Assembly: GCA_963737655.1 (NCBI GenBank)
Contig: CAVTTN010000002.1
Span: 3,520,001 to 3,584,000, forward strand
Reading direction: 5' to 3'
Source: an uncultured Planctomycetota bacterium
GTDB taxonomy: Bacteria > Planctomycetota > Planctomycetia > Isosphaerales > Isosphaeraceae
DNA: 64,000 bases
A model generated the notes under the pieces. That model was not told where the DNA came from. It saw nothing but the letters and a program-made list of their open reading frames with translations, and did no database searches. Made by a program: the position numbers and the translations under genes. Within the stretch, counting starts at the first letter, position 1. Every line of letters begins with the position of its first letter. This document shows, piece by piece, positions 52,506 to 57,577 of this stretch.

Positions 52506-53141
52506 CTACGACCGCTTCTTCCGGCCGCCGCCCGGAGGTTCGCCCTCGACCTCCCGGACGATCCGGGCGATCTCGTCGTCGGTCGGCGCGAAGCCGTCGC
52601 CGGGGGCGTCTCGGAGGCCCGGTTCTTCATCGACGTGAGCAAACGTGTTCATCCAGAAGGCCGCCTCGGCCGCCGACGGCCCCTGCTGGCGGGCCGTCTC
52701 CTCGGGCGAGAGGGCCGGCGCCGGCGCCTCCTTCTTCTTCCGTCCGCGGTCGGCGACCTGGGACAGGAACTCGTCGCACGAGAGCGACCTCGCCCCCTTG
52801 CGGATCGCCGCGACCCTCACCCGATGGTCCGTCGAGACGACCGTCACCGCCTTCGGCGTCGGGTGGGAGGCCAGGATGGCCTCGATCCGGGCGTCGGCGT
52901 CCTCGTCGTCCACCGCGAACAGGATCGTCAGGCCCTTATGTTTTGCCCGATCCGGCCGGTCCGGCGGAGGATGGGCGGCGTCGAACACCACGACGGCCCC
53001 CGCGCTGTCAAGCGGCCCCAACGACGCCGCCAGGTCGTCGAGGAACCGAGTGCGGGCCCTTCGGAGCCCATCGGGCCCGAAGTCGCGTTCCATCAGCCCT
53101 CGGGCATGCATCAGGTTGTAGCCGTCGATGAGGGTCCTCAT
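52506..53141 (-). CDS. NYN domain protein (YacP/Rae1-like)
   Basis: LIDGYNL, VVFDA, DADARIE, VVSTD acidic motifs of the PIN/NYN fold. Confidence 0.82.
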   Translation of the reverse strand: MRTLIDGYNLMHARGLMERDFGPDGLRRARTRFLDDLAASLGPLDSAGAVVVFDAAHPPPDRPDRAKHKGLTILFAVDDEDADARIEAILASHPTPKAVTVVSTDHRVRVAAIRKGARSLSCDEFLSQVADRGRKKKEAPAPALSPEETARQQGPSAAEAAFWMNTFAHVDEEPGLRDAPGDGFAPTDDEIARIVREVEGEPPGGGRKKRS

Positions 53142-53819
53142 GTCCACGATTGTATCCCGACCCCAGGCCCGAGGGGAGGTCGGCGACCCGTCGCGGGTCG
53201 TGGCAATCGGTTCGAATGCCGATGTGAAATTTTCATGGAATCATGATTTGAGATCGGGGAACGCACGGTCTCGTGACCGCGGCCGGGATCGAACCCAGGT
53301 TAGAATCTCATGATTTCCAATATTGTTGATATTACTCAATTTTACGTTTCGCAAGATCGTCGATGTCAACAAAGTGGACAACACAATCATCAAACTGGAC
53401 TACACTCGAGGGGCCAAAAACGCATTCCATCCGAGAAAACAAGGCGAAACCGGGCGCGCACTCGGTAAGGCCAGGTTCCACTTGCCAGAATCTGCATACT
53501 TTTGATGAATGGACTCAAATTCGGTTCTCGCAATAACTTACGCCGCCAGGAGACAGGGTCGCCTCCTGCCGGAAAACGCCCGGATTACGCTTCGTTCCGG
53601 GCCCTGGCTCGGGGCCCGAATCCGAGGGCCGATGCCGCGGGCTCCCGGAGCTTGGCCGGGATCGGGTGATCGGCGGCGTCGGGCGTCTCGATACTCCTTC
53701 CAGAAACTCGATTCGAACGGCCGCGATAAGAAGCGTTTCCTTCTCGGCGGACGGTTCTTCGGGGGCGTCCCGGCCGAGCGACCCCCGGGAAGGAAACGGC
53801 CCTGTCCCGGGGAATCGTC

Positions 53820-53848
53820 TTGCGGAACGTGCGGAGACCGGCCAAGAT
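53820..53848 (+). promoter_or_regulatory. Possible sigma70 promoter of the tRNA
   Basis: TTGCGG-17 nt-CAAGAT, ending 13 nt before the tRNA 5' end. Confidence 0.35.
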
Positions 53849-53861
53849 GGATGCGTTCGAC

Positions 53862-54192
53862 GCGGCCCTAGCTCAACGGTTAGAGCAGGGGACTCATCAA
53901 TAAATGGTGGCGCCGGTGGGCAACCACCGGACGCGATCCGGGTGAATTGCGGGAAGCCTAAACCGACCCCCCCGGCACGGTAATCCGCAGCCAAGCCTGG
54001 CAGGGCTTCGTTCGCCAGGACGGTTCAGAGACTAGCGGGGTGAGCCCCAACGATAATCCCCGCCCCGAGCGCCCGGCCTCCCCGATCGGACCGCCTGCGA
54101 GTCCCGAAGGGAGGGTGAGATAGTCCGAGCCCCTCGGAAACGGGGGGATGCCTCGAATCCCTTGGTTGCAGGTTCGAATCCTGCGGGCCGCA
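53862..54192 (+). tRNA. tRNA-Ile2 (CAT), intron-containing; exons 53862-53897 and 54156-54192
   Basis: Spliced sequence GCGGCCC TA GCTC AACGGTTA GAGC A GGGGA CTCATAA TCCCT TGGTT GCAGG TTCGAAT CCTGC GGGCCGC A folds into a full cloverleaf. The G1-C72 pair excludes fMet, and the sequence resembles ileX-type tRNAs. CCA is not encoded. Confidence 0.9.
53898..54155 (+). ncRNA. Group I self-splicing intron (258 nt, no ORF)
   Basis: P1 with U.G wobble at the splice site (T53897.G53907); P2 with GCAA loop; P3 CCGGGTG/CGCCCGG; P element GAATTGCGGGAA; Q element AATCCGCAGC; R element GTTCAGAGACTA; S element GAGATAGTCC; P9 with GAAA loop; terminal omega-G at 54155. Confidence 0.92.
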
Positions 54193-54197
54193 CTCCC

Positions 54198-56149
54198 TTG
54201 ACCAAATCCCTAGCCTTCCCAGAATCCCCCAAAGCTCCCCGACGAACTCGGGGATGGGGATGGCTCGTCGTCTTCGCCCTGGCAACCCTCCACGAGGTCG
54301 GAAGCTGGGTGGGCCTGGGGGGTTGGAAAGACCTGTCCAGCCCGTCGCCCATCACCCTCCAGGACCACCCGGTCCACGAGCACAGCCTGGCCATCTCCCC
54401 CACCTTTCTCCGCCGGTCCGGGACCACCGCCGGCTACGACCCCAGCTTCATGGCCGGCTATCCCAAGAGCGTGATTTTCCCCCAGTCCTCGACCCTTTAC
54501 GACGCCACAAGCTTCCTGATCCCCGGGGTGCCCCGGCCGATCCTCCATAAGTGGATTGTTTTCTTCGCCCTGGGGAGCATCCCCTGGGTCGTCGCCCTCG
54601 CGGGAAGCCTCTGGGGGCTTCGAGACGACGCCGTCGCCTGGGCCGTCGCCCTGTTCCTGCTCTATGTCTGGACCAATGGGGGGGATGCCGGCTTCCCCCT
54701 CAATTTTGCCTATTTTGGCATGCTAACTTACCTCCTGGCGGTGCCCGTTTGTCTGGTCGCGACGGCGGCCTACTCCCGATACATGGCACGGGGCGGGATG
54801 GGCCGGTGGTTCGGGGCGATCTTGGCCTCGTTCCTGGCGTTCCTGGTCCACGTCACGGCGCCGATGATCGTGGTTCCGGGGGCGTTGTTGAGCTTCCTGA
54901 CCGCCCTGACCAATCGACAGAAGTTCCCCATCTCACGGTACATCGGCGCGTGGACCGTGCCGATCTTCGCGGTCGCCCTGAACGCGTTTTGGTGGCTTCC
55001 GGGCGTGTGGCTCTGGAAGGTCAAGGGAGACACCGGGTTCGCGTTCGACCACTCGAAGGAAAGCGTCTGGACCCGCCTGGCCCAGATCGTCACGACCGCC
55101 CCGCCGATCCAGGCCGTTCTGGTCGGTGCGGGTCTGGTGGGAATTGTGGTCCTTTGGGCCCGGGACCGGGTGTCTGCGGCCGGTCTGGGCGGGTTCGCTC
55201 TGGCCGGGCTTGCCTGGGGTTACCTCGCCGGCGCCGTCCCGAGCCTGGATGCCCTCCAGCCGGGCCGGCATACCTACGCGCTGTTCGCCGGATTGGCCTT
55301 GCTTGGCGGATTGGGGATTTCGGAGGCGTTGGATCGGCTCTCGACCGGCCGCCCGGCCCTTCGCCTGGTGGCCGCCTTTGGCCTGATCGTGTTCGCGGGC
55401 CGGGTGTTCGGTCCGGACCTGGCGGTTTCGGTCCGCTCTCGCCTGGGCTGGCATGCCGGGCCTGGGGCGAGGCCGTTCGTGGGGAGCGAGCCGACCGATC
55501 AGTTCACTCGGCTGATCGCCTGGATTCGCTCCAACGTCAAGCCGGGTGAGCGGTTGTATTACGAAGAGGCCGGCGGCGAGCCGCTACCGGGCGACCCCGA
55601 ACCGTTCGGCGGCCACCGCTATAGCGGCGTGTTGCCGGAGATGACCGGCGTGGAGGTCATCGGCGGCCCTTATTTGAAAGCCTCGGTCGTCCAGAACTTC
55701 ACCCAGATTGGCAGCGGCCTCCTCTTCGGCAAGCCCGAGTGGACCGTGGAACGGTTCGAGAAATACGCCCGCCTCTATCGGCCGTCGGCGATCGTCTGCT
55801 GGAGCCGTCCGGCCCGCGCCTTCTGCCGAAATCACCCAGATCTCGTATCCGTCAGCTTCGACGACGGCCGAATCCTGGCCGGCACGGTGATCGGGTTCGC
55901 GGGCTCGGCGATCCGGGGACGCTGCGAGGTCTTGGCAAGCCCCGGGCGGCTGGACGTCCGGGGGATGGTGCCCGACCTTGACGGCCTGGTCGTGCTCCGG
56001 TATCACCACGCGCCGGACTTCGGAGCCGTCCGACCGTGACGATCGAGCCGGTCCTCCTGGAAGACGACCCGGCACCGTTCATCGGCCTGAGGCCGACGGG
56101 CGGTTCGAGGGAGACGGTCCTGGACCTGGCGATCCCTCCGGCCCGATAA
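54198..56149 (+). CDS. Multi-pass membrane protein, possible GT-C fold glycosyltransferase; apparent frameshift near 56012
   Basis: DHPVH...YDPSFMAGYPK luminal motif followed by many TM segments. The ORF stops at 56039, but a plausible C-terminus continues in another frame to TAA at 56149. Start uncertain. Confidence 0.6.
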
Positions 56150-56272
56150 GATTAGAGTGATGGGACCACCCGCCGAACCCTCAGGAGGAGGCGCCTCGGC
56201 GAGGTGAGGATCGGAAAATGGGGGCGGGCCGTCCGGATCGGCCGCCCCTCGTCTCCAGGGAAGGAGAAGTCC

Positions 56273-57577
56273 GTGACCAGTCCCGAAGAGGCCCCGAACC
56301 CCGACCGCCACGGGCGGAGGGCGGTCTGGATCGCCTACCTCGTCACCATGATCGGCGCCGGACTGATCTACAAGGACAAGGCGGAGGAGGATCGCTCCGC
56401 GTTCGTCCGCTGGCGCCATCAGGTCCTGGAGATCCGCGAAGGGAAGAACATCTGGGATCGCTATTACTTCCCCAATCCGCCCATCCTCGCGCTGACGGTC
56501 TACCCCCTGATGACCCTTCCCCCGGTCGAGGGGGCGTTGTGCTGGTTCAGCCTCAAGGCGTCGATCGCCGCCCTCTGCATGATGGCGTGCATGAGGATGG
56601 CGAAGCCGCCGTGGCTGAAATTCCCGTCGTGGGCGCAGGCGGCCGTGGTCCTTTTATGCCTCCGGCCGATCATGGGAGACCTGCACCACGGCAACAACAA
56701 TTTGATCATCTTTGGCCTGATCGTGACGACGCTGTGGGCCTGGAGGCGGGGCCTGGACGTGATGGCGGGCCTGGCGCTGGCCCTGGCAATTTGCTACAAG
56801 GTCACTCCCGCCTTGTTTGTCCCTTATTTCATGTACAAACGCTCCTGGAGGACGGTCGGGGCGACGTTCCTGGGGATCGTCCTGTTCCTGCTGGTGGTGC
56901 CGAGCCTGATCCTGGGGCCGACGTTCAACGTCCAGTGCCTGGCGAGCTGGTATCGCCGGATCCTGAGTCCCTACATGGAGAACGGGAGCGGCAGCCCTCA
57001 GGAAGTGAACCAGTCGATGGTCGGCGTAATCTACCGCCTCCTCCTGGAGCCGAAGGCGGCCGGTGAGCACAGCTACGGGACGGCCAAGCTGGATCTGAAC
57101 ATCGCGAGCCTCCCTCAAGGGCTCGTCTCGGTCGTGGCCAAGGGGCTCTCGGTCGTCCTGGTCGGCCTCCTGGCGGTCCTCTGCCGGACGAAGACGACCG
57201 ATCGGAAGGACCCGAGGCTCCTGGGCGAATTCTCCCTGGTCGTCCTCACGATGCTGTTCGTGTCGGAGAGGAGCTGGAAGCACCATTACGTGACGATGGT
57301 GTTGCCGTATACCTACCTGGTCGCCCGGACGCTGGTCCTGCCGGCGGAGAAGCGAGTCCGCTGGATCCTTGCCGGGTCCCTGGCGCTGTCGGCGTTCCTC
57401 ATGGCGTGTACGTCGAGCGAGATCGGCTCGCTACTGGTGAAGCACGGGCACAAGATTGCCCAGTTTTACGGCCTCTTCTTCTGGGCGGGGGTGGTGGCGT
57501 ACGTCGCGACGGCCTGGAGGGTCGCGGCCGAGGCCCGAACCTCCCCCCTGGAGCCGGTTCCGGCCTTGACCTCCTGA
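56273..57577 (+). CDS. Glycosyltransferase family 87 (DUF2029) membrane protein
   Basis: FPNPP, DLHHGNNN, LAICYKVTP, NQS, SWKHHY. Confidence 0.82.
   Translation: MTSPEEAPNPDRHGRRAVWIAYLVTMIGAGLIYKDKAEEDRSAFVRWRHQVLEIREGKNIWDRYYFPNPPILALTVYPLMTLPPVEGALCWFSLKASIAALCMMACMRMAKPPWLKFPSWAQAAVVLLCLRPIMGDLHHGNNNLIIFGLIVTTLWAWRRGLDVMAGLALALAICYKVTPALFVPYFMYKRSWRTVGATFLGIVLFLLVVPSLILGPTFNVQCLASWYRRILSPYMENGSGSPQEVNQSMVGVIYRLLLEPKAAGEHSYGTAKLDLNIASLPQGLVSVVAKGLSVVLVGLLAVLCRTKTTDRKDPRLLGEFSLVVLTMLFVSERSWKHHYVTMVLPYTYLVARTLVLPAEKRVRWILAGSLALSAFLMACTSSEIGSLLVKHGHKIAQFYGLFFWAGVVAYVATAWRVAAEARTSPLEPVPALTS

What the first reader, a model, noticed from the sequence alone, without database searches (positions are those of the whole stretch)
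53862..54192. tRNA-Ile2(CAT) split by a group I intron in a planctomycete-like genome
Seen: two tRNA halves (…GACTCAT | AATCCC…) separated by 258 nt that carry all group I core elements (P1 U.G wobble, P3, P4, P7 GACTA/TAGTC, omega-G). Established: the Azoarcus tRNA-Ile(CAU) intron sits at the same position, just 3' of the anticodon, and tRNA-Ile2 is needed to decode AUA after TilS lysidine modification. Inference: splicing is probably essential, standard tRNA finders may miss this gene, and I do not know of a described case in Planctomycetota.
Basis: partly seen in the sequence, partly recalled or inferred. Interest (0 to 1): 0.85.

Follow-up and report, generated by a model that had tools for sequence, protein, structure and literature searches.

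The report
Self-splicing intron in isoleucine tRNA gene
A planctomycete's gene for the tRNA that reads the rare isoleucine codon AUA is split by a 258-base self-splicing (group I) intron of a long-known bacterial type, and nearly every sampled genome of its family carries the same intron.

Summary
Exon 1 is 53862-53897, the group I intron is 53898-54155 (258 nt) and exon 2 is 54156-54192. Rfam Intron_gpI matches full length at 48.9 bits, E 1.8e-11, 1.1 bits under its gathering score. Orthologues reach 76 bits.

Joining the exons in a script gives a clean 73-nt tRNA(CAU). It is 79% identical to E. coli tRNA-Ile(CAU) and 68% to tRNA-Met. TilS is present.

The same interrupted gene is in 111 of 121 Isosphaeraceae species genomes. 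An uninterrupted copy is in 1 of 98. Across 29 genomes, 96.9% of cells pair in my P1-P9 model and 26 of 82 pairs show compensatory change.

This is class Ile2.5Ug, the Azoarcus type and one of four classical bacterial tRNA intron classes. A 2020 preprint mapped 5,292 such introns by phylum. So it is a new member of a known kind, not a new kind.

I found no text naming Planctomycetota, but that table and one supplement could not be read. Splicing is inferred, not shown. Essentiality is uncertain: the assembly lacks an initiator tRNA, and the genome has a tRNA(UAU) gene. This scan has noted tRNA group I introns before, on other DNA.

The parts
53862..53897 (+). tRNA-Ile2(CAU) exon 1: acceptor 5' strand, D arm, anticodon-stem 5' strand, and loop nucleotides 32-36 ending in anticodon CAT
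   Evidence: Sequence. The cloverleaf forms after in-silico splicing. The best E. coli matches are genes annotated tRNA-Ile, 88.9% over 34 of 36 nt, in 5,424 of 5,426 genomes.
53898..54155 (+). Group I intron, 258 nt, no ORF (class Ile2.5Ug in Williams 2020; IC3-like)
   Evidence: RF00028 scores 48.9 bits, E 1.8e-11, over model 1-253. Structure is conserved in 29 genomes. It is the only RF00028 hit in the genome.
54156..54192 (+). tRNA-Ile2(CAU) exon 2: A37, A38, anticodon-stem 3' strand, variable loop, T arm, acceptor 3' strand, discriminator A. CCA is not encoded.
53894..53910 (+). P1: exon TCAT (53894-53897) paired with internal guide GTGG (53907-53910), with a 9-nt loop. U36.G is the wobble pair at the 5' splice site.
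   Evidence: U.G, A-U and C-G are each invariant in 29 of 29 sequences. The fourth pair forms in 25 of 29 (helix 4).
53911..53933 (+). P2 hairpin with GCAA tetraloop (53920-53923)
   Evidence: 6 of 9 pairs show changes on both sides; 95% of cells pair (helix 5).
53938..53944 (+). P3 5' strand (CCGGGTG), pairs with 54070-54076
   Evidence: 98.3% of cells pair for the 6 pairs counted (helix 6).
53948..53989 (+). P4-P5 domain: P4 TGCGGG/TCCGCA, and P5 with a CCTAA...GG motif that resembles a GAAA-tetraloop receptor
   Evidence: (helix 7). The receptor reading is recalled from the Azoarcus literature and was not tested.
53990..54024 (+). P6/P6a hairpin
   Evidence: 4 of 6 P6a pairs show changes on both sides (helix 9).
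54030..54034 (+). P7 5' strand GACTA (guanosine-binding helix), pairs with TAGTC at 54121-54125 and forms a pseudoknot with P3
   Evidence: 98.6% of cells pair (helix 10).
54035..54067 (+). 33-nt insert between P7 and the P3 3' strand. It has no counterpart in the RF00028 model. It is nearly invariant in Isosphaeraceae and its fold is unresolved.
   Evidence: It appears as an insertion in the cmscan alignment. It is conserved in the alignment. Gammaproteobacterial same-site introns carry a different, covarying hairpin at the same place, and three other introns lack it.
54070..54076 (+). P3 3' strand (CGCCCGG)
54077..54114 (+). P8 hairpin (CCTCCC...GGGAGG)
   Evidence: 93.1% of cells pair and 2 of 6 pairs show changes on both sides (helix 12).
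54121..54125 (+). P7 3' strand TAGTC
54127..54154 (+). P9.0 (GAG 54127-54129 with CTC 54152-54154, next to omega-G), enclosing P9 (54130-54147) with a GAAA tetraloop (54137-54140)
   Evidence: The first P9.0 pair is A-U in 15 and G-C in 14 of 29 sequences and is never unpaired. 4 of 7 P9 pairs show changes on both sides (helices 13, 14).
54155..54155 (+). omega-G, last intron nucleotide
   Evidence: G ends the intron in all 29 aligned genes and in all 66 further interrupted genes.

Best explanation
The locus is the organism's gene for tRNA-Ile2(CAU), the tRNA whose C34 TilS converts to lysidine so that it reads AUA. A 258-nt ORF-less group I intron interrupts it between U36 and A37. This is the classical class typified by the Azoarcus pre-tRNA-Ile intron (Ile2.5Ug, subgroup IC3).

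Inferred mechanism, from established group I chemistry:
1. The precursor folds so that exon nucleotides UCAU pair with the internal guide GUGG (P1).
2. A free guanosine bound in P7 attacks after U36.
3. omega-G (54155), positioned by P9.0, replaces it in the pocket.
4. The 3'-OH of U36 attacks after omega-G. This joins the exons and restores the anticodon loop.
5. RNase P, CCA addition and TilS then complete the tRNA.

What is shown here: the sequence anatomy, a significant covariance-model match, structural conservation with compensatory changes across the family, the Ile2 identity of the exons, and near-fixation of the intron in Isosphaeraceae. That distribution fits one ancient insertion followed by vertical descent.

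What is not shown here: splicing itself, lysidine formation, and whether the cell depends on this gene.
For: Intron
- RF00028 matches full length at 48.9 bits, E 1.8e-11.
- In 61 genomes including this one, 36 have a hit and 23 score over the gathering score, up to 76 bits.
- 29 of the 30 loci fetched are the same interrupted tRNA(CAU) gene.

Structure (29 pre-tRNAs)
- 96.9% of 2,377 cells pair, against 37-48% when partners are slid.
- 26 of 82 pairs change on both sides, and 0 of 500 shuffles reach any of the five measures.
- The three splice-site P1 pairs are invariant. The P9.0 pair next to omega-G is A-U in 15 and G-C in 14.

Register
- Only one of the possible registers gives U(-1) and omega-G.

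Host gene
- The exons joined in a script give a 73-nt cloverleaf with anticodon CAU.
- It is 79% identical to an E. coli gene annotated tRNA-Ile that carries CAT, against 68% to metT/metU and 63% to a relative's initiator.
- Relatives hold three tRNA(CAU) classes: initiator, elongator and this one.
- TilS is present at 165.9 bits, above its cut-off of 93.6.
- Other Planctomycetia families carry the same anticodon arm uninterrupted, for example 28/44, 28/88, 8/8 and 17/21 genomes.

Distribution
- The interrupted signature is in 111 of 121 Isosphaeraceae species genomes, and in 45 of the 47 that are at least 90% complete.
- The uninterrupted junction is in 1 of 98.
- All 42 Isosphaeraceae introns fall on one side of a branch, SH-aLRT 85.

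Literature
- The class is described by Williams 2020, bioRxiv 10.1101/2020.01.27.920355 (whole text read).
- Passages of PMC8450103.
Against: - This copy scores 1.1 bits under Rfam's gathering score, so the default scan returns nothing.
- No RNA evidence of the spliced junction was obtained.
- No P10 pairing is evident from the sequence.
- The Ile2 assignment rests on sequence likeness and on elimination, not on an isotype-specific model; none was on hand.
- The alignment and structure were partly derived from this sequence. That favours the observed pairing percentage over the slid controls, though not the compensatory changes.
- The assembly is incomplete for tRNAs (no initiator). An uninterrupted second copy in this strain therefore cannot be strictly excluded.
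Confidence: 0.92

Rival explanations
1. The interrupted gene is real and splices, but splicing is not essential. Either AUA is also read by the tRNA(UAU) gene elsewhere in the genome, or an uninterrupted Ile2 copy lies in unassembled DNA.
For: - A tRNA with anticodon UAU lies at G000:C2:6624238-6624310 and scores 48 bits on RF00005.
- Its homologues keep the TAT anticodon in all seven loci examined, G000's own copy among them, while their stems differ.
- The arm occurs in 16 of 121 family genomes. That is 5 of the 10 genomes lacking the interrupted gene, against 11 of the 111 that have it.
- The assembly has no initiator tRNA, so some tRNA genes are missing from it.
- AUA is very rare, at 0.25 per 1,000 codons.
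Against: - This genome's tRNA(UAU) copy has G at position 8 and C at position 37, both unusual for a working tRNA.
- TilS is intact, which implies a CAU substrate.
- 97 of 98 family genomes lack an uninterrupted copy, among them several assembled into one to a few contigs.
- The intron's structure is under clear purifying selection.
Confidence: 0.25
2. The host tRNA is not Ile2. It is an elongator tRNA-Met(CAU), or, in ARAGORN's register, tRNA-Arg(CCG).
For: - ARAGORN labels the spliced product tRNA-Met(cat), because it cannot tell Ile2 from Met.
- Its intron mode calls tRNA-Arg(ccg), with the intron at 34/35.
- Only one other tRNA(CAU) is in the assembly.
Against: - The Arg register puts C before the 5' splice site and T at the intron's end. 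It also ignores the invariant CAU/GUG P1 and the covarying P9.0.
- An ordinary tRNA-Arg(CCG) exists at C2:2590491-2590565.
- The other tRNA(CAU), at C2:1417550-1417623, is 97% identical to the relatives' elongator class.
- The spliced tRNA is closest to E. coli tRNA-Ile(CAU), at 79% against 68% for tRNA-Met.
Confidence: 0.04
3. The intron is a decayed relic and the gene is a pseudogene that no longer splices.
For: - The score is just under Rfam's gathering score.
- There is no RNA proof of splicing.
- A 33-nt insert sits in the core between P7 and P3.
Against: - All core helices are intact.
- Compensatory changes maintain them across 29 genomes.
- The insert itself is nearly invariant in the family.
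- The exons are almost invariant.
- The gene is kept in 111 of 121 genomes, with no uninterrupted substitute in 97 of 98.
Confidence: 0.03

Closest known systems
[quoted passage not shown]
   Same: - Same host tRNA, same insertion site (after U36) and the same CAU/GUG P1.
- Both are ORF-less and compact.
- Both have P2 and P9 hairpins capped by tetraloops, P9.0 next to omega-G, and no P5abc extension.
- The class and its IC3 label are stated in the Williams preprint. Azoarcus as the solved example appears in PMC3984707 passages and in the PMC13168695 abstract (search listing).
   Different: - This intron is 258 nt. I recall the Azoarcus intron as about 205 nt; I did not check this.
- It has a 33-nt conserved insert between P7 and the P3 3' strand that, as I recall, Azoarcus lacks.
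- L2 is GCAA here.
- The host is a planctomycete, not a betaproteobacterium.
- I did not fetch the Azoarcus sequence, so no direct alignment was made.
tRNA-Ile2 group I introns noted in Acidovorax and Burkholderia (tRNAscan-SE 2.0 paper, PMC8450103)
   Same: The consequence is the same: the Ile2 gene goes missing from standard tRNA annotation because of a group I intron (passage read).
   Different: The phylum differs. The paper's text names no planctomycete. Its Supplementary File S5, which may list Isosphaera pallida or Singulisphaera acidiphila (both were in its data set), is not held.
Same-site introns in Gammaproteobacteria (Rhodanobacter, Dyella, Lysobacter, Steroidobacteraceae, Woeseiaceae and others), found here
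   Same: They have an identical anticodon arm, the same splice site, omega-G, and an extra element at the same place between P7 and P3.
   Different: - Their inserted hairpin has another sequence, CCTG...CAGG with a covarying inner stem.
- Their introns form a separate clade of 51 rows, SH-aLRT 96.
- Their acceptor stem is GGGCC..., not GCGGCC...
[quoted passage not shown]
   Same: It is an IC3 intron in an anticodon loop that is kept by vertical descent through a large clade. That is the pattern seen here in Isosphaeraceae. The vertical-descent history of the Leu intron is recalled from the papers cited in PMC3984707.
   Different: The host tRNA differs and the site is 34/35.

Membership tests
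Group I catalytic intron (Rfam RF00028) | Significant full-length match to the family covariance model | tested here: met
   48.9 bits, E 1.8e-11, model 1-253. This is 1.1 bits below the curated gathering score of 50, so there is no hit at the default threshold. 23 of 61 genomes searched (this one included) score over it, up to 76 bits.
Group I catalytic intron (Rfam RF00028) | U at -1 forming a U.G wobble in P1 with the internal guide sequence | tested here: met
   U 53897 pairs with G 53907. The pair is U.G in 29 of 29 aligned genes.
Group I catalytic intron (Rfam RF00028) | Guanosine (omega-G) as the last intron nucleotide | tested here: met
   G at 54155. G is at this place in 29 of 29 and 66 of 66 interrupted genes.
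Group I catalytic intron (Rfam RF00028) | Conserved core P3-P4-P6-P7-P8 with the P3/P7 pseudoknot, maintained by base pairing | tested here: met
   All helices are present. 96.9% of cells pair, 26 of 82 pairs change on both sides, and slid controls give 37-48%.
Group I catalytic intron (Rfam RF00028) | Guanosine-dependent self-splicing | not testable with these tools
   This needs an in vitro transcript with GTP and Mg2+, or RNA from cells.
Bacterial tRNA intron class Ile2.5Ug (Azoarcus type, IC3) | Host gene is tRNA-Ile2(CAU) | tested here: met
   - 79% identity to E. coli tRNA-Ile(CAU), against 68% to tRNA-Met.
- Exon 1's best E. coli hits are all annotated tRNA-Ile.
- Relatives have separate initiator and elongator classes.
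- TilS is present.
- No isotype-specific model was available.
Bacterial tRNA intron class Ile2.5Ug (Azoarcus type, IC3) | Intron after the fifth anticodon-loop nucleotide (between 36 and 37), with U at -1 and G at omega | tested here: met
   The loop reads CTCAT / intron / AA. The nomenclature comes from the preprint.
Bacterial tRNA intron class Ile2.5Ug (Azoarcus type, IC3) | IC3 architecture: no P5abc, P2 and P9 capped by tetraloops, P9.0 | tested here: inconclusive
   Present: P2 with GCAA, P9 with an invariant GAAA, a covarying P9.0 and a short P5. No subgroup-specific model was run. The extra 33-nt insert between P7 and P3 is not part of the RF00028 consensus.
Mobile group I intron with homing endonuclease | Endonuclease ORF inside or beside the intron | tested here: not met
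   The intron is 258 nt with no room for an endonuclease ORF. The 8 ORFs tested, six flanking and two overlapping it, give no Pfam endonuclease hit; only NYN_YacP and GT87 were found.

The most novel reading that the evidence does not exclude
The Isosphaeraceae intron is a distinct, ancient sublineage of the tRNA-Ile2 intron class. It would have been fixed by vertical descent for the whole history of a planctomycete family, as the tRNA-Leu intron was in cyanobacteria. It carries an extra conserved 33-nt element between P7 and P3 that is not part of the RF00028 consensus core. A patchily distributed tRNA-Ile(UAU) would act as an alternative AUA decoder, allowing occasional loss of the interrupted gene. 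If so, AUA decoding in this family depends on ribozyme activity, and the family offers a natural experiment on replacing the TilS/Ile2 system.
Probability: 0.3. Interest if true: 0.45.

Novelty: new member of a known kind. Interest (0 to 1): 0.3.

Why it matters
- Annotation. Standard pipelines leave these genomes without a tRNA-Ile2 gene. ARAGORN and the default Rfam scan both return nothing here. That can be misread as a missing AUA decoder or as an incomplete genome.
- Evolution. A ribozyme sits in what looks like the main AUA-decoding tRNA gene of nearly a whole bacterial family (111 of 121 species genomes), with clear selection on its fold. This is a second example, beside the cyanobacterial tRNA-Leu intron, of a tRNA intron retained throughout a clade.
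- RNA structure. The family supplies dozens of natural variants of an Azoarcus-type ribozyme, with a conserved extra element between P7 and P3.

None of this changes what is known about how such introns work.

Tried and rejected
RNA evidence
- A search for RNA runs found only small shares, 0.05-0.07 of the sampled words, in metatranscriptome contigs.
- I laid four of them. X2 gave nothing.
- X1, X3 and X6 gave contigs 85-99% alike over parts of the intron and exons. These probably come from relatives, and DNA carry-over is not excluded.
- One X3 contig joins 53898 to 54154, skipping 255 nt, and the tool cannot say whether other letters lie between. The mature junction would be 53897 to 54156. 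I read this as a relative's gene with a dissimilar intron interior, not as a spliced product. It is no evidence either way.

Other checks
- ARAGORN's tRNA-Arg(CCG) register was rejected (see the rival explanations).
- A second group I intron in the genome, which might have explained the missing tRNA-Lys(UUU), Ser(CGA), Val(GAC) and fMet: RF00028 found only this one at E <= 1.
- The initiator tRNA of relatives was sought in the genome by blastn and was not found.
- There is no sigma-70-like promoter upstream and no intrinsic terminator downstream in 53500-54500. The one promoter-like site lies downstream, at 54198-54225.
- I saw no P10 pairing by eye.

Literature searches that found no planctomycete case
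- 'group I intron' + tRNA + Planctomycetes: 9 papers, none on the topic.
- 'group I intron' with Isosphaera, Singulisphaera or Gemmata: none of the 15 papers listed, of 253 matching, holds the intron term.
- 'group I intron' with Xanthomonadales, Rhodanobacter, Lysobacter or Planctomycetota: none of the 15 listed, of 91 matching, holds it.
- 'Planctomy' is absent from PMC3984707 and PMC11835236.

Not seen
- Table 1 of the Williams preprint, which is an image.
- Supplementary File S5 of PMC8450103.
- bioRxiv supplements.

Full report
**1. What is there**

The window holds two tRNA halves on the + strand, at 53862-53897 and 54156-54192, separated by 258 nt. ARAGORN in default mode finds no tRNA anywhere in the window. 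The default Rfam scan lists nothing.

A permissive Rfam scan of 53750-54300 gives Intron_gpI (RF00028) at 53885-54147. The match covers model positions 1-253 at 48.9 bits and E 1.8e-11. The curated gathering score is 50. This is the only RF00028 hit in the 7.63-Mb genome at E <= 1.

Joining the exons by coordinates in a script gives a regular 73-nt cloverleaf with anticodon CAU. With its intron option, ARAGORN places the same 258-nt gap two bases to the left and calls tRNA-Arg(CCG). That register puts C before the 5' splice site and T at the intron's end.

**2. Anatomy**

All coordinates were verified.

| Element | Coordinates and sequence |
|---|---|
| P1 | exon TCAT 53894-53897 with GTGG 53907-53910 |
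| P2 | 53911-53933, GCAA loop |
| P3 | CCGGGTG 53938-53944 with CGCCCGG 54070-54076 |
| P4 | TGCGGG 53948-53953 with TCCGCA 53984-53989 |
| P5 | 53956-53981 |
| P6/P6a | 53990-54024 |
| P7 | GACTA 54030-54034 with TAGTC 54121-54125 |
| P8 | 54077-54114 |
| P9.0 | GAG 54127-54129 with CTC 54152-54154 |
| P9 | 54130-54147, GAAA loop |
| omega-G | 54155 |

Between P7 and the P3 3' strand lie 33 nt (54035-54067) that the Rfam model treats as an insertion.

The intron has no room for an endonuclease gene. The eight ORFs tested, six flanking it and two overlapping it, give only NYN_YacP (52506-53147, minus strand) and GT87 (56204-57577, plus strand) in Pfam.

**3. Relatives**

RF00028 was searched in 61 genomes including this one. 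It hit 32 of 36 genomes of the same family. It also hit 1 of 1 and 2 of 4 genomes in two other families of the class, and none in the remaining six families. There was mostly one hit per genome, and 23 of 61 scored over the gathering score.

Of the 30 loci fetched, 29 are the same gene. They share near-identical exons, an intron of 244-416 nt that starts right after CTCAT, and a 3' end of CG or TG before AATCCC. The thirtieth (L008) is a tRNA-Arg(CCU) gene with an intron after CCU.

Of the 80 fetched, 66 are interrupted tRNA(CAU) genes at the same site, and all of those introns end in G. Their record titles name:
- Isosphaeraceae, including Singulisphaera acidiphila DSM 18658 and Singulisphaera sp. 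Ch08
- many Gammaproteobacteria: Rhodanobacter, Dyella, Lysobacter, Luteimonas, Steroidobacteraceae, Woeseiaceae, Granulosicoccus

So the window's family is Isosphaeraceae, and the intron class is widespread.

Within the family, the interrupted signature is in 111 of 121 species genomes. That includes 45 of the 47 that are at least 90% complete, and 50 of 53 genera.

The uninterrupted junction motif is in 1 of 98 family genomes (G007, two copies). It is common in other Planctomycetia families: 28/44, 28/88, 8/8 and 17/21. Those uninterrupted genes have nearly the same body. The intron therefore entered the resident Ile2 gene.

A quick maximum-likelihood tree of 97 introns, on 241 columns, puts all 42 Isosphaeraceae rows on one side of a branch (SH-aLRT 85). 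The 51 gammaproteobacterial-type rows form another group (96). Relations between the groups are unresolved, with long branches.

**4. Is the fold under selection?**

I aligned 29 pre-tRNAs: 28 Isosphaeraceae and one from another family. I then counted my named structure of 82 pairs, which includes the four tRNA stems, P1-P9, P9.0 and the P3/P7 pseudoknot.

- 96.9% of cells pair, against 37-48% when partners are slid by 1-3 columns.
- 26 pairs have changes on both sides (102 cells).
- None of 500 shuffles reaches any of the five measures.
- P2 (6 of 9 pairs), P6a (4 of 6) and P9 (4 of 7) covary.
- The P9.0 pair next to omega-G is A-U in 15 sequences and G-C in 14, and is never unpaired.
- The three P1 pairs at the splice site are invariant.

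One caveat applies. The structure was drawn from this sequence, which favours the pairing percentage. It does not favour the compensatory changes.

**5. Which tRNA?**

Exon 1's best matches in 5,424 of 5,426 E. coli genomes are genes annotated tRNA-Ile, at 88.9% over 34 of 36 nt. One such gene carries CAT.

| Compared with | Identity of the spliced sequence |
|---|---|
| E. coli tRNA-Ile(CAT) | 79% |
| E. coli metT/metU | 68% |
| the genome's other tRNA(CAU) | 71% |
| a relative's initiator | 63% |

Relatives hold an initiator class (A11:U24) and an elongator class. The genome's uninterrupted tRNA(CAU), at C2:1417550-1417623, is 97% identical to the elongator class. TilS is present and intact: TIGR02432 scores 165.9 bits against a cut-off of 93.6, in a 577-aa open frame. 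The interrupted gene is therefore tRNA-Ile2.

**6. Essentiality**

ATA makes up 395 of about 1.56 million codons in 2,944 long high-GC3 ORFs, and 304 of those ORFs have at least one. No uninterrupted Ile2 is in the assembly.

Two things weaken the case.
- The assembly (3 contigs, 87.7% complete) has no initiator tRNA. ARAGORN also finds no Lys(UUU), Ser(CGA) or Val(GAC). Some tRNA genes are therefore missing from the assembly.
- The genome has a tRNA(UAU) gene at C2:6624238-6624310. Its homologues keep the TAT anticodon in all seven loci examined, G000's own copy among them, while their stems differ. The arm is in 16 of 121 family genomes. That is 5 of the 10 genomes lacking the interrupted gene, against 11 of the 111 that have it. 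The numbers are small, kin are not independent, and several of those genomes are incomplete. The copy in this genome has G8 and C37, both unusual.

**7. RNA data**

Only low-share metatranscriptome contigs were found. Laying four runs gave no contig with the mature junction. This is uninformative.

**8. What is known**

The Azoarcus pre-tRNA-Ile intron is the textbook case (passages of PMC3984707; abstract of PMC13168695 in the search listing).

Williams (bioRxiv 10.1101/2020.01.27.920355; whole text read) mapped 5,292 intron-split bacterial tRNA genes in 80,413 genomes. He lists Ile2.5Ug as one of four classical classes, all IC3. His by-phylum table is an image that I could not read. A lead to this preprint came from earlier notes of this scan.

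The tRNAscan-SE 2.0 paper (passage read) says 36 genomes lack an fMet or Ile2 call because of group I introns. It names Acidovorax and Burkholderia for Ile2. Isosphaera pallida and Singulisphaera acidiphila were in its data set, but Supplementary File S5 is not held.

I found no text that names a planctomycete case.

**9. Verdict**

The observation and its core interpretation are right. This is an ordinary member of a classical intron class in a phylum where it has not, to my knowledge, been discussed in print.

Two modest additions come from this work:
- near-fixation, with structural selection, across a whole planctomycete family
- a conserved 33-nt element between P7 and P3

Interest is 0.3.

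Noticed in passing
L190:101-173 (G000:C2:6624238-6624310, outside the window): A tRNA gene with anticodon UAU, a possible second AUA decoder, with unusual G8 and C37. Homologues with conserved TAT and differing stems are in 16 of 121 Isosphaeraceae genomes. That is 5 of the 10 genomes that lack the interrupted Ile2 gene, against 11 of the 111 that have it.
   Followed up: partly
G000 whole assembly; relatives' initiator e.g. L167:1485-1558 (-): No initiator tRNA is in the window's genome assembly. ARAGORN also finds no Lys(UUU), Ser(CGA) or Val(GAC). The relatives' initiator starts with U1 paired to A72 and has the A11:U24 hallmark. One relative (G024) has at least five near-tandem copies.
   Followed up: partly
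L191 (G007:C45:19229-19881, minus strand) and L192:76-147: The one family genome with an uninterrupted Ile2 gene (G007, two matches to the uninterrupted junction motif) instead has a group I intron in a tRNA that looks like Lys(UUU). By my reading of the U(-1)/omega-G rule, the intron lies after U34. RF00028 scores 35.2 bits there.
   Followed up: partly
L008:1477-1827 (G037, another Planctomycetia family): A tRNA-Arg(CCU) gene with a group I intron right after the anticodon (68.7 bits). This is the classical Arg.5Ug setting. The same genome has an uninterrupted Ile2 arm.
   Followed up: no
L028:1477-1835 (G051) and L060: A second planctomycete lineage of tRNA-Ile2 introns at the same site. 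It is shorter (197-286 nt), lacks the 33-nt insert between P7 and P3, and groups apart from the Isosphaeraceae introns (SH-aLRT 99).
   Followed up: partly
G000:C2:7132320-7132357 (outside the window): A 38-nt fragment 89% identical to the 3' part of the elongator tRNA-Met. It could be the duplicated end left by an element that integrated into a tRNA gene.
   Followed up: no
window 52506-53147 (-) and 56204-57577 (+): The flanking ORFs with Pfam matches are a YacP-like NYN domain protein and a GT87 glycosyltransferase. The other six ORFs tested had no match.
   Followed up: no
window 53973-54152: Metatranscriptome contigs from three studies (freshwater, activated sludge, soil) cover the intron core at 85-99% likeness. 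This may be intron RNA, or DNA, of related organisms. No conclusion was drawn.
   Followed up: no
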